DNA of 64,000 nt from Longimicrobiales bacterium. Lineage in GTDB: Bacteria > Gemmatimonadota > Gemmatimonadetes > Longimicrobiales > Gaopeijiaceae. Below are positions 17,941 to 34,492 of the stretch, piece after piece. Position numbers and translations under genes: made by a program. Numbering within the stretch: position 1 is the stretch's first letter; every line of letters begins with the position of its first letter. The stretch spans positions 576,001 to 640,000 of the forward strand of contig OZ250165.1 of NCBI GenBank assembly GCA_965238005.1, in the 5' to 3' direction. The notes below the pieces were generated by a model. That model ran no database searches. It had not been told where the DNA came from and saw nothing but the letters and a program-made list of their open reading frames with translations.

Positions 17941-18186
17941 TTGGGCAACATTTCCGAGCTTTCTCTCGCGGGTCTCACGATCCGGATCGAGCGGGACCTG
18001 TGCGTGGGGTTCGGCGACTGCATCGATGTCGCCCCGGACGTATTCGAGCTCGACGACGAAGGCATCGCCGTGTTCAAGACGGGCGATCCCGCCGTGGACC
18101 GGGAGGTGCTGCTCGACGCCTGCTCGTCCTGCCCGGTCGACGCTCTGACGGCCTTGGACGAGGAGGGAGCGCAGCTCGTCCCGTAG
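17941..18186 (+). CDS. Monocluster ferredoxin ([3Fe-4S]-type motif)
   Basis: IERDLCVGFGDC...APDVFELD...CPVDAL; probable TTG start at 17941. Confidence 0.88.
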   Translation: MGNISELSLAGLTIRIERDLCVGFGDCIDVAPDVFELDDEGIAVFKTGDPAVDREVLLDACSSCPVDALTALDEEGAQLVP

Positions 18187-18208
18187 CCGGTGACTGTTGC
18201 CAATCGAG

Positions 18209-19108
18209 ATGCGGAAGATCCGGACGTACCAGGAGGTCACCCACGAGACGGGATCGCAGCTCCTCGAGCAGGTACTCGAGCAGAACCAGCGACTGGCGGA
18301 CCGCCTCTCCCGGGTAGGGTCGGTGGTCGCCGTCGCCAGCGGCAAGGGTGGGGTGGGAAAGAGCGCCGTCACCGCGAACCTGGCCGCCGCCCTGGCCCAA
18401 CGGGGACTGGAGGTCGGGGCGGCGGACGCGGACCTCAACGGCCCCTCCCTGGGCCGGATGCTGGGGGTTTCCGGTGCCCGCTTCGTCGATCGATCAGATG
18501 GTGTGGAGCCGGCCCTGAGCCCCACCGGCGTCCGGGTCATGTCGATGGAGCTGCTCCAGCAGGACGAGGATGCACCGCTTCGCTGGCGCGAGCCGTCCAC
18601 CGGTCGGTTCATATGGCAGAGCGCCATGGAGACCGGCGCTCTCAGGGAGTTTCTGGGCGACGTGGCCTGGGGTGACCTGGACGTTCTGCTGGTGGACGTA
18701 CCGCCCGGAACGGACAAGATTGCGCGGCTCCTCGAGCTGGTCCCGGGCCTCCACCAGATGCTCCTCGTGACGACGCCGTCGGAGGCGGCCCGCTTCGTCG
18801 TGTCGAAGTCGGTGCGGATGGCGCGCGAGGCGGAAGTCTCGACGGTGGCCCTCGTGGCGAATATGACGGAGCACGCCTGCTCGTCGTGCGGTCACACGTC
18901 TCAGCTGTTCGGCGGGGACGGGGCACGACGCCTCGCCGAGGAGTCAGGCGTGCCGCTCTGGGCCGACATTCCGTTCGACGCACGCCTTGGGGCCTCCACC
19001 GACCTGGGTTCGCCTCTGGTGCTGGAAGATCCGGAGGCGGCCTCCAGCCGCGCCCTCCTCGCCCTAGCGGACAGGGTCGCCGCCAAGATGGAGGAGAGCG
19101 CCCGATGA
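18209..19108 (+). CDS. Mrp/ApbC (NBP35-like) Fe-S carrier P-loop ATPase
   Basis: SGKGGVGKS deviant Walker A, DADLNGPS, DVPPGT, C-terminal CSSC, IPFD. Confidence 0.9.
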   Translation: MRKIRTYQEVTHETGSQLLEQVLEQNQRLADRLSRVGSVVAVASGKGGVGKSAVTANLAAALAQRGLEVGAADADLNGPSLGRMLGVSGARFVDRSDGVEPALSPTGVRVMSMELLQQDEDAPLRWREPSTGRFIWQSAMETGALREFLGDVAWGDLDVLLVDVPPGTDKIARLLELVPGLHQMLLVTTPSEAARFVVSKSVRMAREAEVSTVALVANMTEHACSSCGHTSQLFGGDGARRLAEESGVPLWADIPFDARLGASTDLGSPLVLEDPEAASSRALLALADRVAAKMEESAR

Positions 19109-19575
19109 AGTTCCTTTGCATCGAGTGTGACAACGTCATGGACTTCGCCGAGCGGCAGCTTCCTGGTGACGGCACCCTGGCCGCAGTGTTCTCCTGCGGC
19201 TCGTGCGGGAGGGAGGTGGCCATGCTCACGAACCCCATGGAGACCCAGCTCGTGTCCAGCCTGGGGATAAAGATCGGTGGGCGAGAGGTGCCCGCTCAAC
19301 CCCTCGAGATGGTTCGCAGCTCTCTGGAGGGGGGGAGAGAGGAGGCCTTCGCTATATCGGAGGACATCCCCAGACAACCGGCCGGGCAAGCCTCCCAGGC
19401 CGGTTCGGTCCTCTGGAGTCCCGAGGCGACCGAGCGGATGCAGAAGGTCCCCAGCTTCGTGCGGGGGATGGTGAAGCGGATCTACGTCGACTGGGCCAAG
19501 GAGCACGCGGTAGCCGAGATAACGCCCGAGGTCATGGACCGGGCTCGGACGGAGTTGGGCCTGGAGGGCATGTAG
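19105..19575 (+). CDS. Small protein with N-terminal CxxC...CxxC motifs and a C-terminal PCP_red-like domain
   Basis: MKFLCIECD...CGSCG; C-terminal WSPEATERMQKVPSFVRGMVKR...ITPEVMDRAR; ATGA overlap with the Mrp stop. Confidence 0.8.
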   Translation: MKFLCIECDNVMDFAERQLPGDGTLAAVFSCGSCGREVAMLTNPMETQLVSSLGIKIGGREVPAQPLEMVRSSLEGGREEAFAISEDIPRQPAGQASQAGSVLWSPEATERMQKVPSFVRGMVKRIYVDWAKEHAVAEITPEVMDRARTELGLEGM

Positions 19576-19751
19576 GCTGGGGGCCTCGGCGGGATCGGTC
19601 GACACCGGGCCTCCTCTTGCCGGCGTTGGTTCTCTTCGGCGGACTGCTCGTCACGGGGGGTCTGGGACGATATTGGACCGTGCGTGCAGGGGCCTGATGC
19701 CGTGATTAACATGGGGATTTCCCACACGGTATCAGTGCCCCCTCGCATTTA

Positions 19752-19781
19752 TTGACAGGTCTCAGAAAGGCCGGGTATACT
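19752..19781 (+). promoter_or_regulatory. Near-consensus sigma-70 promoter upstream of the USP/radical SAM/bd-like/cox operon
   Basis: TTGACA (19752-19757), 18 bp spacer, TATACT (19776-19781), in an intergenic region. Confidence 0.7.
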
Positions 19782-20060
19782 GGCCCCCGGTAGGATCCCT
19801 GACATCCTCGAGACTGAGAAGCACGTCACCATACATCGGGTCGCGGGGGGTCTGCCGGCCCCTTTATGACCCTGGTTGCAACGCGAATCGTTGCCCGAGC
19901 GCCAGACATCTAGCTGGATCAGTACAGCCTAGATCGATGATCGATCTTCCCATTCCGAAGCTGAGGAGTGGGGACGCTCCGGTAAGTCTCCGGAGGATGG
20001 AGAGCTTTGTGCTGCTGGCGGGAGGATGCGCTCGGCTAGAGGGCTATGCCCGAGGTATTT

Positions 20061-22202
20061 ATGTACCGTGAAGTCTTCGTACCAGTAGACAACTCCCAAC
20101 ATTCCTATTGGGCCGTGGACCGGGCCATCGAGGTCTGTTCCCACTTCGACGGACGGATCACCGGGAACCACGTCTATGCGGCCCGCCTGCACGACGTTCG
20201 CTTTCGGCAGCTGGAAACCGGCCTCCCGGCCCAGTTCCAGACCGCCCAGGAGATCAAGCGACAGAGGAAGATCCATGACAAGCTGATCGAGAAGGGCCTC
20301 CAGCTCATCTCAGATTCTTTCCTCGACCAGACGGCGAAGGCGTGCGACTCCGCAGGCGTCCTCCTTACCAGGCAGCTCCTCGAAGGAATCAATTACGAGG
20401 AGGTAATCCGTGAAGCCAACGGTGGCAGCGGACGACTGCCAAGTCTCATCGGCTTCGACCCGAACATCGCCGACAAGTACGACGGGGGCGCGACGGTTCG
20501 GAGCGATGTGAAGATAGGCGAGGACGGCCGAATCGTGGCCGAAGATGAAGAGCAGGATGAGAAGCTTGCCGGCTCGAGTGGTCGCCAATACGACCTGTTG
20601 GTCATCGGAGCCCACGGCATCGGCAAACAGCCGTACTCCCAGTTGGGCGGGATGGTCTCTCGGGTAATCCGCGAGGTCGAGAAGGACACCCTCCTCATCA
20701 GAGACGAGAGGCCGCTGCAGAACGGCAATTGGATCGTCTGCGTCGACGGTTCGTCGTACTCCTACAAGGCCATGCGCCTGGCGCTCGAGATGGCCCGGGA
20801 GTTCGGTGCGAAGCTCCACGTCTGCTCCGCCTTCGACGTCGAGTACCACCACGCCGTCTTCGGCAACATCAAGGACATCCTCTCGGCGCAGGCCTCGAAG
20901 GTGTTCAAGTTCGAGGAACAGGAGGAGCTCCACAACAACATCATCGACAAGGGCCTCCTGAAGCTCGCCCAGGCCAACCTCAAGCGCGCTCAGGTCATGG
21001 CCGACGAGTTCCCCGACGTGGACGTGGAGACACAAATCCTCGTCGGAAAGCCCTTCCAGTGCATCCTCCAGTGGATCGAAGAGATCGAGCCGAGCCTCCT
21101 GGTCCTGGCACGTCACGGCGGGCACCGTATCGAGGACACCGACATGGGCTCGCAGGCGGACAACCTGTGCAGGCTCGCCCCCGGTAACATCCTTCTCGTT
21201 GGCACTCTGGACGTCCGTCCGGACGACATCCCGTGGATCGAAGAGGACGGCGAAACGGGCCTGGAGTGGTCGCCCGACGCGGAGGTCCGGATCCTGCGCG
21301 TGCCTCCCTTCGCACTCGGCATCGCGCGCAAGGCCGTGGAGGAGTACGTCCTCGACAACTACGGACCCGGGGCCAACGGCACGTATCGGGAAGACCCACT
21401 CACGCCAGCGCGTGGCAGCGCCTCGAACGGTGCCGGGTCGAGCGGCGTGTCCGGGCCGAGCGACGCGGCCGGGACCGACACCCCCACCGAGCCGGGCACC
21501 GCCGTGCCTCCCCTAGGAGCCGACGGCCTCCCCATGGTGACCAGTGCGCGGCTGGACGAGGCCATCCAGAAACTCCTGCCTACGCATATGCAGCTGATCA
21601 TGGGCATCGGCACCGCGGAAGAGCTCGCCCTCGCCGAGGTAAAGGCCGAAGAGGCGATGAAGCGCACGGTGGTAGAGGGTCTGGACGCGGACCCGCTGCC
21701 GGAGGTCGCCATGGTCTCGGCTAAGTGTCCTTACACGGGACACGTCGAGAGCCGCGAGCGAGCGGCCAAGGATCCCATCCAGTGGACCCAGGAGGCCTTC
21801 GAACGACTGAGGCTCGTTCCTCTCATCGCCCGGCCCCTGGCCCGCAACACCGTGGAGCGCTTCGCCCGTGAGCACGACTTCTGGCGTGTGACGACGCTGG
21901 TCATGGACGAGAACAAGCAGGCCATGATCGAGGCGGACGAGTTCGACATGGACACCATGCTGGTCATGTTCCGCGAGCTCCAGACCAAGCAGATCAGGGC
22001 GGAGGCGGAAGGGGTCGACGGCCTCACCCCCGAGATGCGGAGGTTCATCGAGGAAGCCAAGGCCAGCGGCGTGACACGCTGCCCCATCCGCGATGTGGCG
22101 GAAGCGGCGGACCAGTGTCCGGTGGATTTCAAGACCGTCTCGCCCGAGGACGCCAAGGCCGCCATCGAGCAGTTCATGAGCAAAGAGGCCGGCGAAGCGT
22201 GA
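20061..22202 (+). CDS. Tandem universal stress protein (2 USP domains) with two C-terminal PCP_red-like domains
   Basis: VFVPVDNS...LLVIGAHG and IVCVDGSSYS...LLVLARHG USP domains; WSPDAEVRILRVPPFAL and WTQEAFERLRLVPLIARP motifs. Confidence 0.82.
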   Translation: MYREVFVPVDNSQHSYWAVDRAIEVCSHFDGRITGNHVYAARLHDVRFRQLETGLPAQFQTAQEIKRQRKIHDKLIEKGLQLISDSFLDQTAKACDSAGVLLTRQLLEGINYEEVIREANGGSGRLPSLIGFDPNIADKYDGGATVRSDVKIGEDGRIVAEDEEQDEKLAGSSGRQYDLLVIGAHGIGKQPYSQLGGMVSRVIREVEKDTLLIRDERPLQNGNWIVCVDGSSYSYKAMRLALEMAREFGAKLHVCSAFDVEYHHAVFGNIKDILSAQASKVFKFEEQEELHNNIIDKGLLKLAQANLKRAQVMADEFPDVDVETQILVGKPFQCILQWIEEIEPSLLVLARHGGHRIEDTDMGSQADNLCRLAPGNILLVGTLDVRPDDIPWIEEDGETGLEWSPDAEVRILRVPPFALGIARKAVEEYVLDNYGPGANGTYREDPLTPARGSASNGAGSSGVSGPSDAAGTDTPTEPGTAVPPLGADGLPMVTSARLDEAIQKLLPTHMQLIMGIGTAEELALAEVKAEEAMKRTVVEGLDADPLPEVAMVSAKCPYTGHVESRERAAKDPIQWTQEAFERLRLVPLIARPLARNTVERFAREHDFWRVTTLVMDENKQAMIEADEFDMDTMLVMFRELQTKQIRAEAEGVDGLTPEMRRFIEEAKASGVTRCPIRDVAEAADQCPVDFKTVSPEDAKAAIEQFMSKEAGEA

Positions 22203-23578
22203 TCCGCGGCCTGGACCGTACGCGCTCCTCGGCGGCGACACTGCCACGGCCGGCCCCGGTCGGTCGGGAAGAGCCTCGGCTCGGAGGCGAGGGGGAGAGC
22301 TACGTCCCCCACATTGTCGCCTGGAACTTGACGAAACGCTGCAACCTCGAGTGCGCGCACTGCTACATCTCCGCCGGATCTTGGCACCTTGCCTCCGAAG
22401 AGCTCTCCACGGAGCAGTGCTTCCGGATCATGGACGAGATCCTCGAGGTCAATCCCAACCCCATGCTGATCCTGACCGGTGGGGAGCCCCTGGTTCGGGA
22501 CGATCTGGAGGCTCTCGCCGAGAGAGCCACGTCCCTTGGCGCGACCGTGGTCGTCGGGACCAACGGCATCGGGCTCACCGACGAGCGCATCGAGTCCTTG
22601 ATGGCGGCGGGAATCAAGGGCGTCGCGGTGAGTATCGACTCGCTTCGGCCCGAATATCACGATCGCTTTCGCCACGGGGGCGGCGCACTGGCCGATACCA
22701 TGGCCGCCGTCGAGCGTTGTGCCCGCCATGAGCTCGATTTCGTCATCCAGACCACGGTGACCACCGGGAACCGTCATGAGATCGCCGAGGTGGCGCGCTG
22801 GTCTGCGGCGGCGGGAGCCGTCTCCTTCAACGTCTACTTCGTGGTTCCCACCGGAAGAGCCGAGCACATGCGCGGGATGTCGCCGTCCGAGAACGACGAC
22901 GTCTTGAAGGAGCTGCTCGAGCTGGAGAGGACCTACCGCGGCCGGATGATGGTCCGCTCCAAGTGTCAGCCACAGCTCATGCGCCATGTGCTGCAGGGGG
23001 ATCCGGATTCGCCCCTGCTCAACTACGAGACCCGGTGCCCATGCGGCGTGCACTACGTGCGCATCACTCCCGAAGGGAAGGTGACTCCCTGCCCATACAT
23101 GCCCGTCGTGGCCGGCGACCTCATGACGGACAGCTTCCAGACGATCTGGAGAACGTCTGAGGTCTTCACAGAGCTCCGATCCGGTAGCCTCTCGGGGCGC
23201 TGCGGCCGGTGCGAGTATCGCGAGGTGTGCGGCGGTTGCCGTGCCCGCGCTTACGCCGACGGCGGCGATTTCATGGGCCCGGACGACTCGTGCGTGTACG
23301 AGCCTACGGGCGAGGCGCCCCTGGTGATTCCGGGGGATCGTGTCTCATACGGTCAGCCCGTCACGTCTGAATTGTCTTGGTCTCCGGAGGCTCGAGCCCG
23401 CCTGGAGCGAGTGCCAAGCTTCGTCCGTGGGGTAGTGACGGCCCGCGTGGAAAAATTTGCCCTCGAGAAGGGATATGCCCGCGTAGATACCGAGGTCATG
23501 GCCGAGGTCCGTAAGAGCCTTCCGGTGGACTTCTCGAAAAAGCTTCCGTTCTTCCTCGGCAGGGGAGGATCAGCGTGA
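22199..23578 (+). CDS. Radical SAM/SPASM protein (AhbD/NirJ-like) with C-terminal PCP_red-like domain
   Basis: WNLTKRCNLECAHCY, TGGEPL, SPASM CPCG...PCPY...CGRCEYREVCGGCRARAY...C; C-terminal WSPEARARLERVPSFVRG; GTGA overlap with the USP gene. Confidence 0.88.
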   Translation: MIRGLDRTRSSAATLPRPAPVGREEPRLGGEGESYVPHIVAWNLTKRCNLECAHCYISAGSWHLASEELSTEQCFRIMDEILEVNPNPMLILTGGEPLVRDDLEALAERATSLGATVVVGTNGIGLTDERIESLMAAGIKGVAVSIDSLRPEYHDRFRHGGGALADTMAAVERCARHELDFVIQTTVTTGNRHEIAEVARWSAAAGAVSFNVYFVVPTGRAEHMRGMSPSENDDVLKELLELERTYRGRMMVRSKCQPQLMRHVLQGDPDSPLLNYETRCPCGVHYVRITPEGKVTPCPYMPVVAGDLMTDSFQTIWRTSEVFTELRSGSLSGRCGRCEYREVCGGCRARAYADGGDFMGPDDSCVYEPTGEAPLVIPGDRVSYGQPVTSELSWSPEARARLERVPSFVRGVVTARVEKFALEKGYARVDTEVMAEVRKSLPVDFSKKLPFFLGRGGSA

Positions 23579-27051: not shown

Positions 27052-28892
27052 TGCACGCCGTGACCGGGGGCACGGTGAAGAGCCGGTGGGTTGGATCCCT
27101 TCAAATACTAGTGGGTGGGACCCGTCGCGTGTTCTCTTTTTCGCTCGCGGGCGGGGCCCTTCGAGGATTCCCCTCTACGCTCCAGCAATCTGCGATTGAA
27201 CGTCGCTTCGAGGGGAATTCCGCGGCGGGCCCTCGGCAAGGGGTGCTAGAGAACACGGAGGCGGGCCCCCGGACGTGTGGGACAAGGGATCCTCGCATCG
27301 GCCCGGTCTCGCGGCCGACGGTGGCGGCATCTGTGCTCTTCTTGGTGGGCGGCCTGGGGGCGGGAGGCTTGGCGGCTCAGGAGGGGGATGATCTCGGGAA
27401 GGCCACTTACGAGAGGTGGTGTGCGGGGTGCCACGGGGTCGACGGGACGGGTCAGGGCCCGGGCGCCGAGATGATGCTCCCTCGCCCGCGCGACTTCACT
27501 CAGGCCCTCTACCAGATCCGGTCGACGGCCAGCGGGGAGCTCCCGACGGACGAGGACATGCTCAACGTCATCGACCTCGGGATGCCCGGTACGACTATGC
27601 CGGGTTGGGAGGATCTGCTGTCGCGGCAGGAGCGCGATGCCCTGGTTCAATACCTCAAGGGCTTCTCGCGTTTCTTCTCGCCCGACGAAGTCCCCGAGCC
27701 CCTCGACTTCGGCCGCCCCACGCGGGTGTCGGACGAAGTGCTCGCCGAGGGCAGGGCCCAATACGACGCCATCGAGTGCTGGAAGTGTCATGGCGACCAA
27801 GGTCGTGGGGAGGGGCAGTCCTCGCCCACCCTTGGCGACGACAGCGACTTCCCGATCCGAGCGGCCGATCTCACGGAGAACTGGCTGTTCAACGGTGGTG
27901 GCACGGTGGAGGACATCTATCGCCGCCTTCGAACGGGCCTGGACGGGACCCCCATGCCCAACTTCTCGGACCTGATCGACGCCCAGGTCATGACCGACGA
28001 CCAGCTCTGGGCCCTGGCGCATTACGTCCGGAGCTTCTCCCCCGAGGAAGAGCCCGGCATCAACGAGGTCGTGCGGGCCGCACTGCTGGAGGACGTGCCG
28101 CTTCCCACGTCCGTGGACGACCCCTTGTGGGACACGGCCGAGCCGGCCTATATCCCGCTGGCGGGACAGATCATCGTGAAGCCCCGCTGGTTCGACCCTC
28201 GTGTGGACGGCATGTGGGTCCAGGCTCTTCACGACGGCCAGGAGGTCGCCGTGCGGGTCCGCTGGAGCGACCCCAGCCTGAGCCCCGATCCCGACTGGGC
28301 CGACTGGAAGTCGCAGGTTATCTCGTTCATGGGCCCCAAAGAGGGAGACCCACCGGAGTCGGGACCCACACCGGACCAGCTCCTTCTCCAGTTTCCCATG
28401 CAGATGCCGCAGGGGATGGAGCGCCCGTACTTCATGCGGGGCGACAACCGTCGACCGGTCTACCTCTGGCAGTGGCAGAGCGACCGAAGCACGGCCCTCG
28501 AGGGCGAGGCCCGGGGGATCGGCACGGAGAGCTACCCGTCGGACGGACAGGATCTCGCGGTGAGCGCCTCCCACGAGGACGGGCAGTGGCAGGTTATGTT
28601 CACTCGCACCCTGCTCACCGAGGACGAGGGCGATCTGGACTTCGTCACAGGCGAGGCCATTCCGGTGGCGTTCTTCGCCTGGGACGGGGACAACGGAGAA
28701 TCGGGCACGCGTAGCTCCGTGAGCTCGTGGTACTTCTTGTTCCTCCAGGAGCCCACTCCCAACACGGTGTTCGTCGCTCCCGTAGTGGCTATGATGCTCA
28801 CGGCGGGACTGGGGATTCTCGTGGTCGGTAGGGCGCAGAAGCGAGAGCGTGAAGGCGAGATCGTGGAAGAGACCGAATCAACACAAGGCTGA
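27051..28892 (+). CDS. Diheme cytochrome c fused to an EB_dh/DOMON-like (ethylbenzene dehydrogenase gamma-type) domain, with C-terminal anchor
   Basis: CAGCH, CWKCH, PRPRDFT, GTTMPGW, GTPMP; then VRWSDP, RPYFMRGD..PVYLWQW, AFFAWDG; C-terminal TM helix. Start is 27051 (TGATG overlap) or GTG 27321. Confidence 0.87.
   Translation: MHAVTGGTVKSRWVGSLQILVGGTRRVFSFSLAGGALRGFPSTLQQSAIERRFEGNSAAGPRQGVLENTEAGPRTCGTRDPRIGPVSRPTVAASVLFLVGGLGAGGLAAQEGDDLGKATYERWCAGCHGVDGTGQGPGAEMMLPRPRDFTQALYQIRSTASGELPTDEDMLNVIDLGMPGTTMPGWEDLLSRQERDALVQYLKGFSRFFSPDEVPEPLDFGRPTRVSDEVLAEGRAQYDAIECWKCHGDQGRGEGQSSPTLGDDSDFPIRAADLTENWLFNGGGTVEDIYRRLRTGLDGTPMPNFSDLIDAQVMTDDQLWALAHYVRSFSPEEEPGINEVVRAALLEDVPLPTSVDDPLWDTAEPAYIPLAGQIIVKPRWFDPRVDGMWVQALHDGQEVAVRVRWSDPSLSPDPDWADWKSQVISFMGPKEGDPPESGPTPDQLLLQFPMQMPQGMERPYFMRGDNRRPVYLWQWQSDRSTALEGEARGIGTESYPSDGQDLAVSASHEDGQWQVMFTRTLLTEDEGDLDFVTGEAIPVAFFAWDGDNGESGTRSSVSSWYFLFLQEPTPNTVFVAPVVAMMLTAGLGILVVGRAQKREREGEIVEETESTQG
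27093..27292. repeat. ~200 bp nested palindromic element within the 5' end of the cytochrome c gene
   Basis: Pairs GGATCCCTT 27093-27101/AAGGGATCC 27284-27292, CGTGTTCTCT 27128-27137/AGAGAACACG 27248-27257, ATTCCCCTC 27167-27175/GAGGGGAAT 27210-27218; inner CAATC/GATTG. Confidence 0.75.
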
Positions 28893-28916: not shown

Positions 28917-29768
28917 ATGTCGGATCGAACTGCACTGCGCTGGGTGATGACCCCCGCGCTTGTGACACTCTTGGCCGTGGGTTGTGGTGGGGGTGACGGC
29001 GGTGGAAGCGGCTCCGGGGACTCCGGTGGCGGAGCCGCGGTGGAGAACCCTGTCGATGCGGCCACCGCGGGCAACATCGCCGGGACCGTCGTCTTCGAGG
29101 GTGACGCTCCCGCGATGGACGCCATCGACATGAGCGACGAGCAGGTGTGCGCGGACAAGCACGCCTCCACGCCCATGGCCGAAGAGGTCGTGGTGAACGA
29201 CGGCTCTCTCGCCAATGTGTTCGTCTACGTGAAGCAGGGGCTGGAGAGCCTCCAGTTCCCGACGCCAGGCCCGGCACTCCTGGACCAGGACGGATGCACG
29301 TACATTCCGCACGTTCTGGGGGTCATGACGGGCCAGGACATCACCATCCGCAACAGCGACGGTCTTCTGCACAACATCAACGCGTCGCCGACGGAGCAGC
29401 GCGGCTTCAACACGAGCCAGCCCATGAACATGGAGAGCACCCGCAGCTTCCGCACGGTCGAGGTCATGGTGCCGGTGCGCTGTGACGTGCACGGGTGGAT
29501 GAACGCATACATCGGGGTTCTCGATCACCCGTATCACTCGGTGTCCGGCTCCGACGGAAGCTTCGACCTGTCCACGCTGCCCCCGGGTGACTATGTCATC
29601 GAGGCGTGGCACGAGCGCTACGGCACCCAGACGCAAAACGTCACCGTGGCTACTGGCGAAACGGCAGAGATCACGTTCACATTCAGCGCTTCCATGGCCA
29701 GCGCCGTGGTGCCGTTGGGTGAGGCTGTCGATCTCCACGACCACGGCGTGGCCGTCGACAGAGACTAG
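28917..29768 (+). CDS. Lipoprotein with cupredoxin-like and carboxypeptidase-regulatory-like domains
   Basis: Lipobox LAVGC plus Gly linker; LDQDGCTYIPHV, LLHNIN, CDVHGWM. Confidence 0.8.
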   Translation: MSDRTALRWVMTPALVTLLAVGCGGGDGGGSGSGDSGGGAAVENPVDAATAGNIAGTVVFEGDAPAMDAIDMSDEQVCADKHASTPMAEEVVVNDGSLANVFVYVKQGLESLQFPTPGPALLDQDGCTYIPHVLGVMTGQDITIRNSDGLLHNINASPTEQRGFNTSQPMNMESTRSFRTVEVMVPVRCDVHGWMNAYIGVLDHPYHSVSGSDGSFDLSTLPPGDYVIEAWHERYGTQTQNVTVATGETAEITFTFSASMASAVVPLGEAVDLHDHGVAVDRD

Positions 29769-29857: not shown

Positions 29858-30541
29858 ATGAACTTTTCCTGGCTCATGCCGGAGACCGTTTCCACCTTCG
29901 GGCCGGCCTTGGACAACCTCTACTACGTGATCCTGTGGATCACGGGAATCGTGTTCTTCATCACGGAGATCACGCTGGTTGTCTTCCTCGTGAAGTACCG
30001 CCACAGGGAAGGTCGCAAGGCGGAGTACATCCACGGGAGCAACAAGGCGGAGGTCGTTTGGACCGTCATACCGTTCATCATCGTCATGGGGCTGGCCATC
30101 TACTCCAAGGGGATCTGGGACGAGATTCGGGATCCGGCGCGCATTCCGCCCGACGCCTACCAGATCGATATTATGGCGAAGCAGTTCGAGTGGAACGCCA
30201 CCTACGCCGGTGCGGACGGCCAGCTCGGCACTTCGGACGACTTCGTATCTCGCAACGCACTGCACATCCCGGTGGATCGGCCGGTGCGGATCAACCTCCG
30301 CGCCGAGGACGTGATCCACTCCTTCTTCCTTCCCCAGTTCCGGGTGAAGCAGGACGCGGTCCCCGGCCACATGACACCGGTCTGGTTCGAGGCGACCCGC
30401 ACGGGTGAGTTCACCCTCGCTTGCGCAGAGTTGTGTGGACTCGGACACTATCGCATGAAGGGGACGGTCACGGTCCATTCGCAGGCCGACTTCCAAGCCT
30501 GGCTTGCCGGCCAGCAAGCCGAGGAGGAGGACGACCGATGA
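29858..30541 (+). CDS. coxB: Cytochrome c oxidase subunit II (CuA; no fused cytochrome c)
   Basis: Two TM helices, DVIHSFF, CAELCGLGHYRM CuA ligands. Confidence 0.95.
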   Translation: MNFSWLMPETVSTFGPALDNLYYVILWITGIVFFITEITLVVFLVKYRHREGRKAEYIHGSNKAEVVWTVIPFIIVMGLAIYSKGIWDEIRDPARIPPDAYQIDIMAKQFEWNATYAGADGQLGTSDDFVSRNALHIPVDRPVRINLRAEDVIHSFFLPQFRVKQDAVPGHMTPVWFEATRTGEFTLACAELCGLGHYRMKGTVTVHSQADFQAWLAGQQAEEEDDR

Positions 30542-32331
30542 CCACTACCGCTGTAGCCGAGACGCACACCGGCCACGCTGAGGGGCACCACGACCTGGGC
30601 TTCATCAGGACGTACGTGTTCTCCACCGATCACAAGATGATCGCCCGGCAGTTCCTCTTCGCCGCCCTGTTCTTCCTGCTGGTGGGAGGCATCCTGGCCG
30701 GGATGGTCCGCTGGCAGCTCGGGTTCCCCGGTCAACCGATGCCCCTCGGCCGCTTCTTGCCGGACACGATGGCTCCGGGCGGGATCATCCTCCCGGAGTT
30801 CTACAACTCGCTGGTGACGATGCACGCCACCTTCATGGTGTTCTTCGCGCTCATGCCCATGCTTGCGGGTGTCTTCGGCAATCTGCTGATCCCCCTCCAG
30901 ATCGGCGCCGACGACATGGCGTTCCCTCGCCTCAACATGGCGTCCTTCTGGATCGTGCCGGTCGCCGGTGTGGTCATGCTGGCCAGCTTCTTCGTGGAGG
31001 GGGGAGCGGCCGGGGCCGGTTGGACGTCCTACGCGCCCCTGAGCGCATCGGGCGAGTGGACCGGCGTCTACCTGGGACAGCAGCTCTGGCTTGTCAGCCT
31101 CATCATCGTGGGCTTCTCGTCCATCACGGGCGCCATCAACTACGTCTCCACGGTGATCAACATGCGGGCGCCGGGGATGACCTGGTTCCGGATTCCCCTT
31201 GCCACCTGGGCAATCTTCATCACGGCTTGGCTGCTCCTCCTGGCCGTGCCGATCCTGACGGGTGGACTCATCCTGCTGCTGTTCGACCAGACCATCGGGA
31301 CCGCCTTCTTCCGACCCGAGGGGAGCGGCGAGCCGCTATTGTGGCAGCACATCTTCTGGTTCTTCGGCCACCCCGAGGTGTACATCCTGATCCTTCCGGC
31401 TATGGGGTTGGTGTCGGACATAATCTCCTGCAGGTCACGGAAACCGATCTTCGGGTACCACTCCATGGTCCTGGCCCTCGTCTCCATCGCGTTCCTGGGG
31501 TGGATCGTCTGGGGGCACCACATGTTCCAGAGCGGCATGAACCCGCTCCTGGGCATGACGTTCGTGGTCACCACGGTGGTCATCGCCGTGCCGTCGGCCA
31601 TCAAGGTGTTCAATTGGATGGGGACGTTGTGGCGCGGGAACATCCACTTCGACACGCCGCTTCTCCACGCCGTCTCCTTCGTGTCGCTCTTCATCATCGG
31701 CGGCCTGTCGGGAATCTTCATGGCGTCGGCGCCGGTGGACATCTACATCCACGACACGTACTTCATCGTGGCGCATCTCCACTACGTCCTCGTGGGCGGC
31801 ACCCTGTTCGGGATCTTCGCCGGCATCACGTTCTGGTTCCCGAAGCTGTTCGGGCGGATGATGCACGAAGGCCTGGGCAAAGTGCACTGGGTCCTGTCGT
31901 TCATCTTCTACAACTTGACCTTCTTCCCCATGCACAACCTGGGCGTCCAGGGGATGATGCGCCGAATCTACGACCCCAATCAGTACGAGTTCCTGCAGGC
32001 TCTTCAGCCGATGAACACGTTCATCACCATCAACATGTTCATATTCGCCAGCGCACAGGCCATCTTCGCCTTCAACTTCCTGTGGAGCCTGTTCAAGGGT
32101 AAGAAGGCCGGCAACAACCCCTGGGAGTGCAATACGCTCGAGTGGTCCGTTCCGTCTCCTCCGCCCCACGGAAACTTCCCGGAGATCCCCATCGTGTACC
32201 GCGGGCCGTACGAGTACAGCCACCCCGACAGGGAGGAGGACTTCTATCCGCAAGACGTGCCGCCACCCACGAGCGACGTCGGAGGACAGAGCGTTCAAGC
32301 GCCCACCCCTGAACCCGTTCCCGGAGACTGA
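30538..32331 (+). CDS. coxA: Heme-copper oxidase subunit I, A1 type, intact
   Basis: TDHK, TMHA, WFFGHPEVY, WGHHMF, AHLHYV, GMMRR; ATG at 30538. Confidence 0.96.
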   Translation: MTTTAVAETHTGHAEGHHDLGFIRTYVFSTDHKMIARQFLFAALFFLLVGGILAGMVRWQLGFPGQPMPLGRFLPDTMAPGGIILPEFYNSLVTMHATFMVFFALMPMLAGVFGNLLIPLQIGADDMAFPRLNMASFWIVPVAGVVMLASFFVEGGAAGAGWTSYAPLSASGEWTGVYLGQQLWLVSLIIVGFSSITGAINYVSTVINMRAPGMTWFRIPLATWAIFITAWLLLLAVPILTGGLILLLFDQTIGTAFFRPEGSGEPLLWQHIFWFFGHPEVYILILPAMGLVSDIISCRSRKPIFGYHSMVLALVSIAFLGWIVWGHHMFQSGMNPLLGMTFVVTTVVIAVPSAIKVFNWMGTLWRGNIHFDTPLLHAVSFVSLFIIGGLSGIFMASAPVDIYIHDTYFIVAHLHYVLVGGTLFGIFAGITFWFPKLFGRMMHEGLGKVHWVLSFIFYNLTFFPMHNLGVQGMMRRIYDPNQYEFLQALQPMNTFITINMFIFASAQAIFAFNFLWSLFKGKKAGNNPWECNTLEWSVPSPPPHGNFPEIPIVYRGPYEYSHPDREEDFYPQDVPPPTSDVGGQSVQAPTPEPVPGD

Positions 32332-32334
32332 CCT

Positions 32335-32991
32335 GTGAGCCAGGCTGCAACCGCGACGATGGACCGTAGGCCCATGCCCGGGATGATGGTCTACAACAAC
32401 AAGCTTGGCATGTGGGTGTTCCTGCTCAGCGAGGTGATGTTCTTCACTTCGCTGATCGGTTCATACGTCATCCTGCGCTTCGCGCATCCGGACCATTGGA
32501 CGGATCCGGGCGTGATCCTGAACGTTCCCCTCACGGCCCTGAACACCTTCTTCCTGATCTGCTCGTCGGTGACGATGGTGAAGGCCTTCGCGGCCATCCA
32601 GCATGGAGATCAGAAGGGCTTGAAGCTTTGGCTCCTGGCGACAATCCTCATCGGAACGCTCTTCGTGGGCATTCAGGCGGTGGAGTACAACGTGTTGTCG
32701 GCAGAAGGATTCGTCCCCATGCTCGACGCGTATCACGCGCTGGGCCGGGGGAATCCACACGAGGGTCCGGCCCTCGGTGGACCCCTCTACGGGGCGACCT
32801 TCTACGCCATGACCGGCTTCCATGGAGCACACGTGACCCTGGGAGTGCTGGCCCTCTGGTTCGTATTCGGAAAGGCACTCCGTGGAGGCTATACCAGGGA
32901 GAATCACCAGGGCGTTGAAGTCATCGGCCTATACTGGCACTTCGTGGATCTGGTGTGGATTCTTCTCTTCACCGTCGTCTACCTGATATGA
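32335..32991 (+). CDS. coxC: Cytochrome c oxidase subunit III
   Basis: FLLSEVMFF, TGFHGAHV, GLYWHFVDLVW. Confidence 0.95.
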   Translation: MSQAATATMDRRPMPGMMVYNNKLGMWVFLLSEVMFFTSLIGSYVILRFAHPDHWTDPGVILNVPLTALNTFFLICSSVTMVKAFAAIQHGDQKGLKLWLLATILIGTLFVGIQAVEYNVLSAEGFVPMLDAYHALGRGNPHEGPALGGPLYGATFYAMTGFHGAHVTLGVLALWFVFGKALRGGYTRENHQGVEVIGLYWHFVDLVWILLFTVVYLI

Positions 32992-33013
32992 GCGAGTACC
33001 TGATATGAGCGAG
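32980..33013. repeat. 17 bp tandem duplication spanning the coxC stop codon
   Basis: TACCTGATATGAGCGAG at 32980-32996 and 32997-33013. Confidence 0.85.
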
Positions 33014-33018
33014 GAGGA

Positions 33019-33285
33019 ATGATGGAAGAGCATCCGCAACCCCGTTATATCCTGATCTGGGTCGTCCTCCTCGTGCTGACGATGGCCGAGGTCGGATACG
33101 CGTTCATGGATCTCCCGAAGGTCTGGCTCGCCACGGGATTGATCATCATGGCGCTGTGGAAGGCACTGCTGGTGGCGATGTACTTCATGCATCTCCGCTA
33201 CGAGCCTCGACGGCTCTGGGTGTTGGCCGCTTCTCCGCTTCCACTGGCGGTGATTCTGGTGCTGGCCGTCATTACAGAATTCTAG
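33019..33285 (+). CDS. Cytochrome c oxidase subunit IV family protein
   Basis: LLVLTMAEV...KALLVAMYFMHLRYE; three TM helices. Confidence 0.9.
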   Translation: MMEEHPQPRYILIWVVLLVLTMAEVGYAFMDLPKVWLATGLIIMALWKALLVAMYFMHLRYEPRRLWVLAASPLPLAVILVLAVITEF

Positions 33286-33327
33286 TGTTCCGTTTCCGAA
33301 GTTCGCGAGCCACCAAGAGGGTCGGGG
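33283..33327 (+). repeat. MITE family A, left end; supplies the subunit IV stop codon
   Basis: TAGTGTTCCGTTTCCGAAGTTCGCGAGCCACCAAGAGGGTCGGGG. Confidence 0.85.
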
Positions 33328-33371
33328 GGTCATGATCGCCGGGCGGCGACTACTCCAGATGGAGCGGTAGG

Positions 33372-33533
33372 TTGGACAACGAGGGTCTGCGACTTGGGCT
33401 GTTTCTCGGTGGCGTCATAATGGCCGCCGTACCGGTCTCCGTGGGCGTAGGGTTCGGCATCTTCCTCTTCAAGCAGTTCAAGAAGGAGCGCCTGCACGGC
33501 GAGGGGGCACACGAGCAAAGGGGGGCGCCATGA
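33372..33533 (+). CDS. 53 aa single-span membrane protein (not in the ORF track)
   Basis: TTG start after GGAG; MDNEGLRLGLFLGGVIMAAVPVSVGVGFGIFLFKQFKKERLHGEGAHEQRGAP*; ATGA overlap with the next gene. Confidence 0.65.
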   Translation: MDNEGLRLGLFLGGVIMAAVPVSVGVGFGIFLFKQFKKERLHGEGAHEQRGAP

Positions 33534-34492
33534 GGGAGCGCTTCCGCGGGGTGGTTCCTCGGGGTGTCGTGGCCGGATTCCTCGGCGCCACGGCCATGGC
33601 CTTCTGGTTCCTGATCGTCGACGGTTCCCAGGGGGAGCCGTTTAGAACTCCGGCGTTCCTGGCCGGAGCCATTCTCGGCACCGGGGACATCGAGCGGAGC
33701 CTGGGCCCTGTCTTCCTCTACACGCTCATCCACTACGTCGCATTCATCACGGTCGGCCTCCTCGTGTCGTGGACGCTGTCGAAGATCTATACGGCACCCA
33801 ATGTCTTCCTGGGGCTCGTACTCGGATTCGCCCTCTTCGACATCGTCTTCTACACGAGCGTCTCGGTCACAGGCGTAGACGTCGTGGCAGAGCTCGGCTG
33901 GCCCGCGGTTGTGGCCGGCAATCTCATCGCGGGCGTGACCTTGATGGGCTTCCTCCACCTCACGGGCGCCACGCCACCGGTATCGTGGTGGGCCCTCCTA
34001 GGAGAGCACCGGATGTTCAAAGAGGGACTGGTGTCGGGGCTCATCGGTGCCGGTGTGGTGGCCCTCTGGTTCCTCATCATCGATATGGGGCGTGGGCAAC
34101 CCTTCTTCACTCCAGGAGCTCTGGGGTCCGCGCTCTTCCTGGGCTCCAGCGATCTGGCCGCCGTCAGCGTGTCGAGCGCGACCGTGATGGGATACACCAT
34201 CGTCCACATCGGTGCGTTCATCGCTACCGGTTTCGTCGCCGCAGCCATCGCGTGCTACGCCGAGGACACGCCTCCCCTCATCCTGGCGGGGGTAATGCTC
34301 TTCGTGGCCTTCGAGGCGTTCTTCATGGGCCTCATGGCGCTGGCCGCCGAGTTCCTCCTGGGTCCCCTGGCGTGGTGGGCCATCGCCGTGGGCAACGTGC
34401 TGGCCTCGGTTGCCATGGCGTACTACCTGTGGGTCAAGCACCCGAAGCTGCGGAGGGTCTTGGCCGAGAACCCCTGGGACAAGACGGACTGA
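33530..34492 (+). CDS. Uncharacterised polytopic membrane protein with an internal duplication
   Basis: Repeats GVVAGFLGATAMAFWFLIVD..GEPFRTP...YTLIH and GLVSGLIGAGVVALWFLIID..GQPFFTP...YTIVH. Confidence 0.8.
   Translation: MRERFRGVVPRGVVAGFLGATAMAFWFLIVDGSQGEPFRTPAFLAGAILGTGDIERSLGPVFLYTLIHYVAFITVGLLVSWTLSKIYTAPNVFLGLVLGFALFDIVFYTSVSVTGVDVVAELGWPAVVAGNLIAGVTLMGFLHLTGATPPVSWWALLGEHRMFKEGLVSGLIGAGVVALWFLIIDMGRGQPFFTPGALGSALFLGSSDLAAVSVSSATVMGYTIVHIGAFIATGFVAAAIACYAEDTPPLILAGVMLFVAFEAFFMGLMALAAEFLLGPLAWWAIAVGNVLASVAMAYYLWVKHPKLRRVLAENPWDKTD

What the first reader, a model, noticed from the sequence alone, without database searches (positions are those of the whole stretch)
17941..34492. Candidate new respiratory system: a CydB-less bd-like subunit plus a five-heme cytochrome c wire, co-operonic with an A1 heme-copper oxidase
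Seen: one co-oriented run, with several overlapping stop/start codons. Order: ferredoxin, Mrp, PCP_red protein, USP, radical SAM, CydA-like subunit, three cytochromes c (2+1+2 CxxCH, one with an EB_dh/DOMON domain), cupredoxin-like lipoprotein, CoxII/I/III/IV, two membrane proteins. No cydB, Rieske/cyt b or ACIII subunit is in the window. Known: CydA homologues lacking the quinol-binding loop and linked to cytochromes c occur in Nitrospirota ('bd-like oxidases') and remain functionally unresolved; ACIII or bc genes commonly precede cox operons in this position. Inference: the bd-like module is not the O2 reductase here. It may be an electron-input complex (a complex III substitute) forming a supercomplex with the aa3-type oxidase, or the two may form a dual-oxidase assembly.
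Basis: partly seen in the sequence, partly recalled or inferred. Interest (0 to 1): 0.9.

Follow-up and report, generated by a model that had tools for sequence, protein, structure and literature searches.

The report
bd-like oxidase module joined to aa3
An uncultured Gemmatimonadota bacterium carries a strongly conserved gene cluster that joins a known but never purified "cytochrome bd-like" membrane enzyme, its cytochromes c, a blue-copper protein, haem-maturation genes and an ordinary aa3 oxidase, and it probably receives electrons from alternative complex III instead of replacing it.

Summary
Window 17854-34492 (+) encodes Fdx, Mrp, a small PCP_red protein, USP-PCP_red, an AhbD/NirJ-like radical SAM-SPASM-PCP_red enzyme, a Q-loop-less CydA-like protein, three cytochromes c (2+1+2 CxxCH, the last with EB_dh), a type-1 copper lipoprotein, CoxII/I/III/IV and one membrane protein.

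The bd-like part is not new. It is the published OR-N / Nitrospira "bd-like oxidase" module, which resembles Manganitrophus TO_1. This scan has met it in at least nine other Gemmatimonadota genomes.

The link to cox is real:
- 37 of 37 ortholog loci from seven families keep the order.
- 86 of 301 genomes of the phylum carry the cluster.

The reading as a complex III substitute fails:
- This genome has a full ACIII and a cytochrome b.
- 5 of 5 closed carrier genomes have ACIII.
- In three genomes ActD is fused to the first cytochrome of the cluster.
- Each half also occurs alone.

Most likely ACIII feeds a shared cytochrome c/cupredoxin pool that serves two O2 reductases, with a dedicated haem-maturation set. 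I found neither the cox linkage nor the radical SAM set in print. This is a new variant of a known kind, and its function is still untested.

The parts
   Evidence: Pfam Fer4_13/Fer4_15, E 3e-10. Found upstream of the cluster in most ortholog loci, in variable order.
18197..19108 (+). Mrp/ApbC/NUBPL-type Fe-S cluster carrier ATPase
   Evidence: Pfam ParA (NUBPL), 234.6 bits. NCBIfam MrpORP/ApbC, below the equivalog cut-offs.
19105..19575 (+). small protein with CxxC...CxxC and a PCP_red domain (C-terminal domain of BchB)
   Evidence: Pfam PCP_red, E 1.3e-11. Start at ATG 19105, overlapping the Mrp stop. 52-67% identical in the orthologs.
19752..19781 (+). sigma-70-like promoter match (TTGACA-18-TATACT) in the 470-nt gap before USP
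   Evidence: 11 of 12 hexamer positions match. It is the only match in 16800-35000. Shuffles give 2.3 on average, so the count alone is not significant.
20046..22202 (+). 718-aa USP protein with PCP_red domains
   Evidence: Pfam Usp, E 4e-26, and PCP_red in two stretches. 62-83% identical in the orthologs. The Atlas lists the Usp+PCP_red architecture in Gemmatimonadota and also, at score 0.89 (a lead only), in Nitrospirota.
22199..23578 (+). AhbD/NirJ-like radical SAM-SPASM enzyme with a C-terminal PCP_red domain
   Evidence: Pfam Radical_SAM, SPASM and PCP_red. Best NCBIfam hits are NirJ2 at 281.6 bits and AhbD at 270.8 bits, both below the 500-bit cut-offs. The ortholog is in 86 of 86 carriers.
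23575..25377 (+). CydA-like (bd-like, OR-N type) membrane haem protein, 600 aa, with no Q-loop and no CxxCH
   Evidence: Pfam Cyt_bd_oxida_I, 73 bits, profile positions 2-248 of 418. H62, E149 and H230 align with E. coli H19, E107 and H186, and E99 is Tyr142. The AF2 model has pLDDT 84.4 and 13 TM helices plus an N-terminal helix. The top Foldseek hits are CydA chains.
25439..26236 (+). Cc2: membrane-anchored diheme cytochrome c
   Evidence: CxxCH at residues 62 and 190, one TM helix. Fused to the C-terminus of CydA-like in P0122, P0124 and P0132. In one frame with CydA in L017, L021 and L037. Fused behind ActD in L011, L052 and L062.
26254..27051 (+). Cc1: monoheme cytochrome c with about three N-terminal TM helices
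   Evidence: CxxCH at residue 165. Invariant C165, C168, H169, M226 and an R118..H121-P122 motif in 30 sequences. Predicted to bind CydA-like helices 7-8: ipSAE 0.71, best control 0.00.
27243..28892 (+). CcEB: diheme cytochrome c + EB_dh/DOMON-like domain + C-terminal TM anchor (start uncertain, 27051-27321)
   Evidence: Pfam Cytochrom_C x2 and EB_dh, E 1.4e-19. CxxCH at residues 60 and 179. The position aligned with the Lys of EbdC and NxrC is Ser here and is never Lys in 47 sequences.
28917..29768 (+). CuLp: lipoprotein with an amicyanin-like type-1 copper domain and a CarboxypepD_reg domain
   Evidence: H152-N153, C189, H192 and M195 are invariant in 45 of 45 sequences. AF2 pLDDT 87.0. The top Foldseek hits are pseudoazurin, plastocyanin and amicyanin, E 2.5e-5 and up.
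29858..30541 (+). CoxII with a CuA site and no cytochrome c domain
   Evidence: NCBIfam CoxB, 171.8 bits against a cut-off of 147.7. The motif H...CxExCxxxHxxM is visible in the translation.
30538..32331 (+). CoxI of an A-type haem-copper oxidase (GHPEV motif)
   Evidence: Pfam COX1, 498.9 bits. NCBIfam CtaD_CoxA, 639.6 bits, just under the 670.75 cut-off. The translation shows WFFGHPEV.
32335..32991 (+). CoxIII
   Evidence: Pfam COX3, E 6.5e-25.
33019..33285 (+). CoxIV (prokaryotic)
   Evidence: Pfam COX4_pro, E 2.4e-15. NCBIfam caa3_sub_IV, above its cut-off.
33530..34492 (+). 320-aa internally duplicated membrane protein of no known family; a loosely attached member
   Evidence: No Pfam or NCBIfam hit. 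About 8 hydrophobic segments and two alike halves. It lies after cox in some loci and elsewhere or on the other strand in others.

Best explanation
The cluster encodes the terminal segment of an aerobic chain that is fed by alternative complex III.

The proposed electron path:
1. ACIII, encoded 32 kb upstream, oxidises menaquinol.
2. It hands electrons to the membrane-anchored cytochromes c of the cluster. Cc2 comes first, and it is physically tethered to ActD in some relatives.
3. From that pool, which includes the lipid-anchored blue-copper protein, electrons reach two O2 reductases made from one transcription unit.

The two O2 reductases:
- An OR-N-type 'bd-like' enzyme. Its core is the 13-14-helix CydA-like protein plus Cc2 and Cc1 as membrane subunits, with CcEB attached.
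- A conventional proton-pumping aa3-type oxidase. Its CoxII lacks its own cytochrome c domain, so it needs these carriers.

The five upstream genes (ferredoxin, Mrp, two PCP_red proteins and the AhbD-like radical SAM enzyme) are a dedicated haem finishing or tailoring and delivery set for this haem-rich machinery. They are made with it.

What is shown and what is inferred:
- Shown: gene content, conservation, co-occurrence, the fusions, retained haem ligands, loss of the Q-loop, and the predicted CydA-Cc1 interface.
- Inferred: O2 reduction by the bd-like enzyme, the order of electron transfer, the role of the radical SAM set, and co-transcription.
For: Family identity:
- The fold is CydA.
- The H19, H186 and E107 equivalents are kept and no Q-loop is present.
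- No CydB is found in the complete genome.
- The preprint's main text says OR-N enzymes lack the quinol site, share the four helices of the O2 site, and that N1/N2 have 14 helices (passages).
- Three cultivated Nitrospirales carry no oxygen reductase other than OR-N enzymes (passage).

ACIII as the input:
- actABCDEF is in the own genome.
- ActD and ActC are in 5 of 5 closed carriers, while cytochrome b is in only 1 of 5.
- An ActD-Cc2 single ORF lies directly after CydA in 3 loci of the 178 scanned.
- In G224 the act operon itself lacks ActD.

Composition of the module:
- CydA-Cc2 fusions occur in other lineages, and CydA and Cc2 share one open frame in 3 of 37 Gemmatimonadota loci.
- CydA plus Cc1 complex prediction: ipSAE 0.71 (median of 3 runs), best control 0.00. 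This mark was reached by 116 of 157 solved complexes and 2 of 215 mismatched pairs. The runs share at least 61% of their contacts, and the partner pLDDT is at least 77. My own alignments were used, so these counts hold only roughly.

Position in other lineages:
- The bd-like genes follow Rieske and cytochrome b.
- Of the 79 metagenome loci, only the two closest to the window's own type carry window-cluster genes. L185 has the cox genes. L187, a 3.6-kb contig at 73% CydA identity, has a 58% radical SAM hit and ends before cox would appear.

The cluster as a unit:
- 37 of 37 loci are syntenic.
- The radical SAM ortholog is in 86 of 86 carriers. Among the 215 non-carriers there are only two partial hits.
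- In family f1, 15 of 17 carriers have this CoxI as their only COX1 match, and the non-carriers have a different one at 46-48% identity.

Carrier proteins: the type-1 Cu ligands are invariant in 45 of 45 sequences and the fold is a cupredoxin. CoxII has CuA and no haem c.

Haem set:
- The best family hits of the radical SAM enzyme are AhbD and NirJ2.
- The genome has ChdC, so coproheme is an intermediate.

Expression hint: contigs of RNA libraries from two studies, 90-99% alike, lie on genes of both halves. They bridge Fdx/Mrp, Cc2/Cc1, CcEB/CuLp and CoxIII/IV, and one covers the whole CuLp-CoxII spacer.
Against: - No member of the OR-N family has been purified or assayed, so O2 reduction is an inference.
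- The residue aligned with E. coli E99 is an invariant Tyr.
- The ligands of the third haem and the partner of H230 could not be located.
- The EB_dh domain lacks the Lys that aligns with EbdC and NxrC, so 'periplasmic cytochrome b' may not apply here.
- It is unexplained why an organism would always co-express two oxidases from one operon. The gene order (module, cupredoxin, then CoxII) would equally fit a linear relay into aa3.
- The ActD fusion is seen in only three close relatives, and the window's own genome keeps ActD in the act operon.
- The genome also has ChdC and CtaA, so the radical SAM set is not needed for ordinary haem b or haem a.
- RNA contigs cannot prove a single transcript, and DNA can be present in RNA libraries.
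Confidence: 0.5

Rival explanations
1. Relay or adapter reading, the softened form of the first reader's idea. The bd-like module does not reduce O2. It is a membrane-bound haem b/c hub that takes electrons from ACIII and passes them, through CcEB and the blue-copper lipoprotein, to the CuA site of the haem-c-less aa3 oxidase. It does the job that the fused cytochrome c domain does in caa3 enzymes, possibly inside an ACIII-module-aa3 supercomplex.
For: - The gene order is module, then cupredoxin, then CoxII, and it is invariant in 37 of 37 loci.
- CoxII has no cytochrome c domain.
- In family f1 the cluster and the caa3 type are nearly mutually exclusive.
- In this genome the caa3 CoxI carries a frameshift and an in-frame TAG.
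- The ActD-Cc2 fusion ties the module to ACIII.
- The E99 equivalent is lost.
Against: - A 600-aa protein kept at 72-88% identity, with the O2-site helices and haem ligands conserved, is an expensive wire.
- The same aa3 operon works without the module in family f8. It is found in 3 of 3 f8 genomes, and in the one locus whose flanks were annotated (L193) it is followed by ctaA-ctaB.
- The paralogous module and the relatives in other lineages have no cox beside them.
- Aerobic Nitrospirales with only OR-N enzymes exist.
Confidence: 0.22
2. The bd-like module is a quinol:cytochrome c oxidoreductase that substitutes for complex III in organisms that lack bc1 and ACIII.
For: - No bc or ACIII gene lies inside the window.
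- Canonical CydA oxidises quinol.
- A published survey found ACIII annotated in fewer than 10% and petB in 23% of 326 Gemmatimonadota genomes (passages). It raised the possibility of novel complex III modules.
Against: - A full act operon and a cytochrome b are in this genome.
- ActD and ActC are in 5 of 5 closed carriers.
- There is no Q-loop.
- Relatives sit downstream of Rieske and cytochrome b.
Confidence: 0.04
3. The bd-like enzyme reduces or detoxifies another small molecule, such as NO, nitrite or peroxide. Alternatively, it takes up electrons from a high-potential periplasmic donor through its DOMON-like domain, and the aa3 oxidase is the only O2 reductase of the cluster.
For: - The family's chemistry is untested.
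- Family members are prominent in nitrite and Mn(II) oxidisers.
- The DOMON/EB_dh domain here lacks the usual Lys, so it may bind something other than haem.
- A USP-domain protein heads the operon.
Against: - No substrate-specific enzyme, such as a molybdoenzyme or a multicopper oxidase, is linked in the 37 loci.
- The O2-site helices are the conserved part of the family.
Confidence: 0.1

Closest known systems
OR-N family of the cytochrome bd superfamily (Murali, Gennis & Hemp 2021 preprint, main text read in passages). This is the NIDE0901-type 'bd-like oxidase' of Nitrospira.
   Same: - CydA fold with the first four helices and the haem ligands kept.
- No quinol-binding loop and no CydB.
- About 14 helices.
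- Encoded with c-type cytochromes.
- A Nitrospira/Manganitrophaceae protein (P0141/P0271) is 36-40% identical.
   Different: - It forms its own tight Gemmatimonadota clade, with 100% SH-aLRT on a quick tree.
- It is always followed by aa3 genes and preceded by an AhbD-like set.
- I could not run the authors' subfamily HMMs because the supplements are closed. The label N2 therefore comes from earlier notes of this scan, not from a test here.
Terminal oxidase cluster TO_1 of Candidatus Manganitrophus (bd-like clade I + two cytochromes c + periplasmic cytochrome b). TO_3 and TO_4 add ACIII or complex III.
   Same: The same four-part module, and a genetic association of bd-like genes with ACIII or bc complexes. 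The association is also seen in L121 and, through the ActD fusion, here.
   Different: - The EB_dh domain here is fused to a diheme cytochrome c and lacks the Lys aligned with EbdC and NxrC.
- A type-1 copper lipoprotein and an aa3 oxidase are part of the unit.
- The hosts appear to be heterotrophs of another phylum.
ACIII-caa3/aa3 supercomplexes of Rhodothermus marinus and Flavobacterium johnsoniae (recalled; PDB 6BTM appeared)
   Same: ACIII is genetically and, through the ActD fusion, probably physically coupled to the terminal oxidase segment.
   Different: - The act genes here are 32 kb away.
- The oxidase has no fused cytochrome c.
- A bd-like enzyme with three cytochromes and a cupredoxin lies between them.
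AhbD (radical SAM haem b synthase) and NirJ
   Same: - Radical SAM CxxxCxxC motif plus a SPASM domain.
- The best NCBIfam hits are NirJ2 and AhbD.
- Databases name the homologues 'heme b synthase'.
   Different: - Its scores are far below the equivalog cut-offs.
- It has an extra C-terminal PCP_red domain, shared with two neighbouring proteins.
- It occurs only in genomes that carry the cluster.
- The host already has ChdC.

Membership tests
Cytochrome bd superfamily (CydA fold) | Sequence and fold of subunit I | tested here: met
   Pfam PF01654, 73 bits against a cut-off of 26.2. The ten best Foldseek PDB hits are all CydA chains, E 3e-9 to 2e-6.
Canonical quinol-oxidising cytochrome bd (qOR) | Periplasmic Q-loop between helices 6 and 7 | tested here: not met
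   The Pfam match stops at profile position 248 of 418. In the model, helices 257-295 and 309-336 are joined by a 13-residue loop.
Canonical quinol-oxidising cytochrome bd (qOR) | CydB partner subunit | tested here: not met
   There is no PF02322 match at E<=1 in the single-contig genome (95.85% complete). The control search matched in 11 of 14 genomes.
Canonical quinol-oxidising cytochrome bd (qOR) | Haem ligands and channel residues H19, H186, E99, E107 (E. coli numbering; their roles are recalled) | tested here: inconclusive
   H62=H19, H230=H186 and E149=E107 are kept. E99 aligns with Tyr142, which is invariant in alignment A2. The equivalents of M393 and E445 could not be aligned.
OR-N family (Murali et al.) | No quinol site; no CxxCH in CydA (unlike OR-C); about 14 helices for N1/N2; cytochromes c in the operon | tested here: met
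   There are 0 CxxCH motifs in the CydA-like protein. The model has 13 TM helices plus an N-terminal helix. Three cytochrome c genes follow.
OR-N2 subfamily specifically | Classification by the authors' subfamily HMMs or conserved-residue table | not testable with these tools
   The bioRxiv supplements are closed, and the PMC version is not held.
Manganitrophus TO_1-type module | Periplasmic cytochrome b (EB_dh domain with haem b ligands; Met/Lys is recalled from EbdC) | tested here: inconclusive
   The EB_dh domain is present, E 1.4e-19. The Met position is Met in 24 of 47 sequences, and the window has a Met one residue earlier. The position aligned with the Lys of EbdC and NxrC is Gly, Met, Ser or Ala and never Lys.
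A1-type haem-copper cytochrome c oxidase | CuA site in subunit II; GHPEV glutamate motif in subunit I (the type definition is recalled) | tested here: met
   The translation shows CAELCGLGHYRM with an upstream His, and WFFGHPEV. CoxB scores above its cut-off, and CtaD_CoxA scores 639.6 against a cut-off of 670.75.
AhbD / NirJ equivalogs | Score above the NCBIfam equivalog cut-off | tested here: not met
   NirJ2 scores 281.6 and AhbD 270.8, against cut-offs of 500. The protein resembles them but is not a member of either.
Type-1 (blue) copper cupredoxin | His, Cys, His, Met ligand set on a cupredoxin fold | tested here: met
   H152(N153), C189, H192 and M195 are present in 45 of 45 sequences. 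The model has pLDDT 87.0, and its top hits are pseudoazurin, plastocyanin and amicyanin. Pfam itself gave no cupredoxin hit.
   The own genome has actABCDEF and a cytochrome b. ActD and ActC are found in 5 of 5 closed carriers.

The most novel reading that the evidence does not exclude
The cluster encodes one physical respiratory megacomplex in which three parts are held together:
- ACIII, through ActD.
- The bd-like enzyme, made of CydA-like, Cc2, Cc1 and CcEB.
- The aa3 oxidase.

A lipid-anchored blue-copper protein acts as the internal shuttle.

The bd-like active site would carry a tailor-made haem produced by the AhbD-like radical SAM enzyme and delivered by the PCP_red-domain proteins. 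That would be a first biosynthetic route to the special haem of a bd-family oxidase.
Probability: 0.12. Interest if true: 0.85.

Novelty: new variant of a known kind. Interest (0 to 1): 0.55.

Why it matters
The bd-like (OR-N) enzymes have been proposed as terminal oxidases of nitrite and manganese oxidisers for more than a decade, and none has been purified.

What Gemmatimonadota add:
- The phylum is abundant in soils and sediments, and here the same module is among the most conserved proteins of the genome.
- It is locked into one cluster with an ordinary aa3 oxidase and a private haem-maturation set.
- Natural fusions (ActD-Cc2 and CydA-Cc2) tell which proteins touch.

These features yield concrete, expressible constructs and testable partners for an open question.

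There is also a practical consequence. A published survey counted 'cytochrome bd oxidase' in 53% of Gemmatimonadota genomes and treated it as a quinol oxidase that bypasses complex III. The carriers found here, 86 of 301 genomes, hold a CydB-less, Q-loop-less enzyme that cannot be read that way. ACIII also seems under-called in that survey.

Tried and rejected
- Radical SAM set as an O2-independent replacement for haem A synthase. The idea came from L185, where CtaA stands in its place. I rejected it as a necessity because the genome has CtaA and UbiA-family genes.
- Weak 'radical SAM' hits beside bd-like genes of other lineages. In the one locus annotated (L121) this is a DUF3463 (HpnH-type) enzyme, so it is unrelated.
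- Rfam search of 16000-36000 at E<=0.1 gave nothing.
- Terminator-like sites: 9 were found against 8.1 expected, so they are uninformative.
- The first attempt to scan genome contigs with a 20-sequence alignment failed for lack of a conserved stretch. The narrower alignment returned only Gemmatimonadota MAGs, so no named cultured carrier was found.
- RNA contigs leave several bins uncovered (for example 18922-19482 and 27337-27897 in most runs). This says nothing either way.
- The careful phylogeny did not finish in 300 s, so only the quick tree is used.
- I could not read residue-level structural superpositions. The partners of H230 and the third haem site therefore stay unassigned.
- Literature searches for 'Gemmatimonad' + 'bd-like' and for 'bd-like' + 'radical SAM' each returned 0 papers. 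The PCP_red/PF08369 search gave nothing relevant.

Full report
**What is there.**

The window is G000:C1:576001-640000 of a single-contig 4.84-Mb genome with about 65% G+C. Source names of the closest homologues place it in Gemmatimonadota, near Longimicrobiales MAGs.

- ferredoxin
- Mrp
- a small Cys4 + PCP_red protein
- a 718-aa USP protein with PCP_red domains
- a radical SAM-SPASM-PCP_red enzyme
- a 600-aa CydA-like protein
- a diheme cytochrome c (Cc2)
- a monoheme cytochrome c with about three TM helices (Cc1)
- a diheme cytochrome c with an EB_dh domain and a C-terminal anchor (CcEB)
- a lipoprotein (CuLp)
- CoxII, CoxI, CoxIII and CoxIV
- one 320-aa membrane protein

Four gene pairs overlap by 4 nt, and most other gaps are 3-89 nt. 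The larger gaps are 470 nt before USP, about 190 nt before CcEB and 244 nt before the last gene. The 470-nt gap holds the only strong sigma-70-like match of the region, at 19752-19781 with 11 of 12 positions. No CydB, Rieske, cytochrome b or ACIII gene is in the window.

**The individual proteins.**

*CydA-like protein.*
- Pfam matches only profile positions 2-248 of 418.
- Against E. coli and Geobacillus CydA, H62, E149 and H230 align with H19, E107 and H186. E99 aligns with Tyr142, which is invariant among ten diverse homologues. H172 is invariant as well.
- The AlphaFold model (pLDDT 84.4, pTM 0.83) has an N-terminal signal-like helix and 13 TM helices. Only a 13-residue loop stands where the Q-loop would be.
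- Its ten best PDB matches are CydA chains.
- It has no CxxCH motif.

*CuLp.* H152-N153, C189, H192 and M195 are invariant in 45 of 45 sequences. The model (pLDDT 87.0) matches pseudoazurin, plastocyanin and amicyanin.

*Cox subunits.* CoxII has a CuA motif and no haem c. CoxI has GHPEV.

*EB_dh domain.* It aligns with EbdC and NxrC, but the position of their Lys is Ser here and is never Lys in 47 sequences. That this Lys is the haem ligand is recalled, not tested.

*Radical SAM enzyme.* It scores best against NirJ2 and AhbD, at 281.6 and 270.8 bits against cut-offs of 500. Some databases name its homologues 'heme b synthase'.

**Is the arrangement conserved?**

In 301 genomes sampled from the phylum, 86 carry an ortholog of the CydA-like protein at 72-82% identity. 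The distribution is patchy: f1 17/47, f4 39/125, f5 1/69, f7 22/23 (the tally includes the unpublished G182).

I fetched 37 ortholog loci from 37 genomes of seven families. All 37 keep rSAM, CydA, Cc2, Cc1, CcEB, CuLp and CoxII-I-III-IV in this order and on one strand. USP is present in the 36 whose contig reaches that far.

A second set of 59 named MAG loci overlaps the first in part:
- 38 of 38 loci that extend 8.5 kb downstream have CoxI.
- 51 of 52 loci with 1.6 kb upstream show the radical SAM gene. L056 does not.
- L081 shows no CuLp.

The radical SAM ortholog is in 86 of 86 carriers. Among the 215 non-carriers it appears only as two partial hits, in G180 and G052.

**The two halves are separable.**
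- The same genome has a paralogous module at about 50% identity: two CuLp-like genes, CydA-like, Cc2, Cc1 and CcEB, with no cox and no radical SAM gene. The same is seen in G060, G127 and G290.
- The three genomes of family f8 have the orthologous aa3 operon (CoxI 65-66%) with no module. In the one locus whose flanks were annotated (L193) it is followed by ctaA and ctaB.
- In family f1, 15 of 17 carriers have this CoxI as their only COX1 match, and the non-carriers have a 46-48% identical caa3 type.
- In this genome the caa3 CoxI carries a frameshift and an in-frame TAG.

**What feeds it?**

The genome has actA-F at G000 554-561.5 kb and a cytochrome b elsewhere. ActD and ActC orthologs are in 5 of 5 closed carrier genomes. 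Cytochrome b is in 1 of 5.

I could not tell from earlier notes of this scan whether the following point had been worked out. In G224, L052 and L062 the gene directly after CydA-like is one ORF that encodes a full ActD, a linker and Cc2. The ActD part is 80-84% identical to this genome's ActD. In G224 the act operon runs ActA-B-C-E-F with no ActD. This natural fusion ties Cc2 to ACIII.

Cc2 is in turn tied to the CydA-like protein:
- It is fused to the C-terminus of CydA-like in other lineages.
- It lies in one frame with CydA-like in three Gemmatimonadota loci.

A complex prediction of CydA-like with Cc1 supports binding. The ipSAE is 0.71 and the best control is 0.00. The mark was reached by 116 of 157 solved complexes and 2 of 215 mismatches. 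The runs share at least 61% of their contacts, and the partner pLDDT is at least 77. My own alignments were used. The interface joins CydA helices 7-8 to the TM part of Cc1. I know of no solved complex with a Cc1-like subunit, but this rests on recall.

**Comparison with other lineages and with print.**

The nearest non-Gemmatimonadota homologues, about 50% identical and found in 79 metagenome loci, show a different cluster. In the one locus annotated in full (L121) it holds two CydA-likes, cytochromes c, Rieske, cytochrome b, Cc1, EB_dh and a diheme cytochrome.

Only the two loci closest to the window's own type carry window-cluster genes:
- L185 has cox, with CtaA upstream in place of the radical SAM set.
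- L187, a 3.6-kb contig at 73% CydA identity, has a 58% radical SAM hit and ends before cox would appear.

What the papers say (passages read):
- The Murali et al. preprint defines OR-N enzymes as Q-site-less CydA homologues that share the O2-site helices. N1 and N2 have 14 helices.
- The Manganitrophaceae preprint describes TO_1 as a bd-like protein, two cytochromes c and a periplasmic cytochrome b. TO_3 and TO_4 are linked to ACIII or complex III.
- The Nitrospirales paper says that ACIII is nearly always followed by an OR-N5 enzyme. It also says that three cultivated species have no other oxygen reductase.

These points favour an oxidase role for the family, with complex III or ACIII as the donor.

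A quick tree puts the Gemmatimonadota proteins in one clade (100% SH-aLRT), apart from the Nitrospira type.

I found no paper that joins Gemmatimonad* with 'bd-like', or 'bd-like' with 'radical SAM'. A Gemmatimonadota survey counts 'cytochrome bd oxidase' in 53% of genomes as a quinol oxidase, and finds ACIII in under 10%. The supplements of the Murali paper may list Gemmatimonadota, but I could not see them (the bioRxiv supplements are closed).

**Expression.** Contigs from metatranscriptome libraries of two studies, 90-99% alike, lie on USP, rSAM, CydA, Cc2, Cc1, CcEB, CuLp and the cox genes. They bridge four gene junctions, and one covers the whole CuLp-CoxII spacer. This is a hint only. 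Contigs show no single transcript, and DNA may be present in such libraries.

**Earlier notes of this scan.** At least nine earlier findings in other Gemmatimonadota genomes describe the same module, mostly filed as OR-N2. One of them suggested that the module supplies a quinol-to-cytochrome c step that the phylum lacks. My ACIII results speak against that.

**Verdict.**

The bd-like module is a member of a known, untested family. What is new is the variant:
- a fixed union with aa3
- a private AhbD-like/PCP_red set
- a blue-copper lipoprotein
- fusions that point to ACIII as the donor

My confidence in the readings:
- 0.5: ACIII feeds a shared carrier pool that serves two O2 reductases.
- 0.22: the module is a relay into aa3.
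- 0.04: complex III substitute.
- 0.1: other chemistry.

Noticed in passing
window 41963-45965 (-), lesions near 44530-44560 and at 43399: A second, caa3-type cox operon (CoxII with a fused cytochrome c). Its CoxI is split by a frameshift just after the ...FTMHG motif and by an in-frame TAG. It is either a pseudogene or a long-read assembly error. If the lesions are real, the aa3 of the cluster is the only intact haem-copper oxidase of the genome.
   Followed up: partly
L011:9756-11201 (-), L052 about 11794-13323 (+), L062 about 11743-13179 (+); L195 for the act operon of G224: ActD of alternative complex III is fused to the diheme cytochrome Cc2 right after the CydA-like gene in three Longimicrobiales genomes. 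In G224 the act operon lacks ActD.
   Followed up: yes
L008:7638-15123 (= G000:C1 about 971.6-979.1 kb): A paralogous bd-like module (two CuLp-like genes, a 680-aa CydA-like with an insertion, Cc2, Cc1 and CcEB) with no cox or radical SAM genes. A transposase (rve) gene lies just downstream.
   Followed up: partly
window 26254-27051 (Cc1), residues R118, H121, P122: An invariant R-x-x-H-P motif lies in the linker between the TM part and the haem domain of Cc1. It is kept even in the distant relatives, 30 of 30 sequences. It may be an extra ligand or a contact residue.
   Followed up: no
window 27052-27242: An unusually long spacer, about 190 nt or more, before the CcEB gene. In most orthologs CcEB starts at or near the Cc1 stop. 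The true start in the window is uncertain.
   Followed up: partly
L192-L194 (family f8 genomes G069, G155, G128): The orthologous aa3 operon stands alone with no bd-like module. In the one locus whose flanks were annotated (L193), ctaA-ctaB follow and unrelated genes lie upstream on the other strand.
   Followed up: yes
L045:17313-19984 (G060): An ActA/ActB-like pair (33% and 27% identity) lies about 4 kb downstream of the paralogous bd-like module. A PCP_red-like hit follows its CcEB.
   Followed up: no
window 9539-11335 (-) and 34611-37910 (+): An ETF-QO-like gene lies upstream. A 1099-aa PD40-repeat/amidohydrolase protein lies directly downstream of the cluster and is also adjacent in the closest relatives L011, L051 and L062.
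   Followed up: no
G000:C1:4085147-4086835 (L196, L190): ChdC (coproheme decarboxylase family) lies directly upstream of a UbiA-family gene. This indicates the coproporphyrin-dependent haem pathway in this organism.
   Followed up: partly
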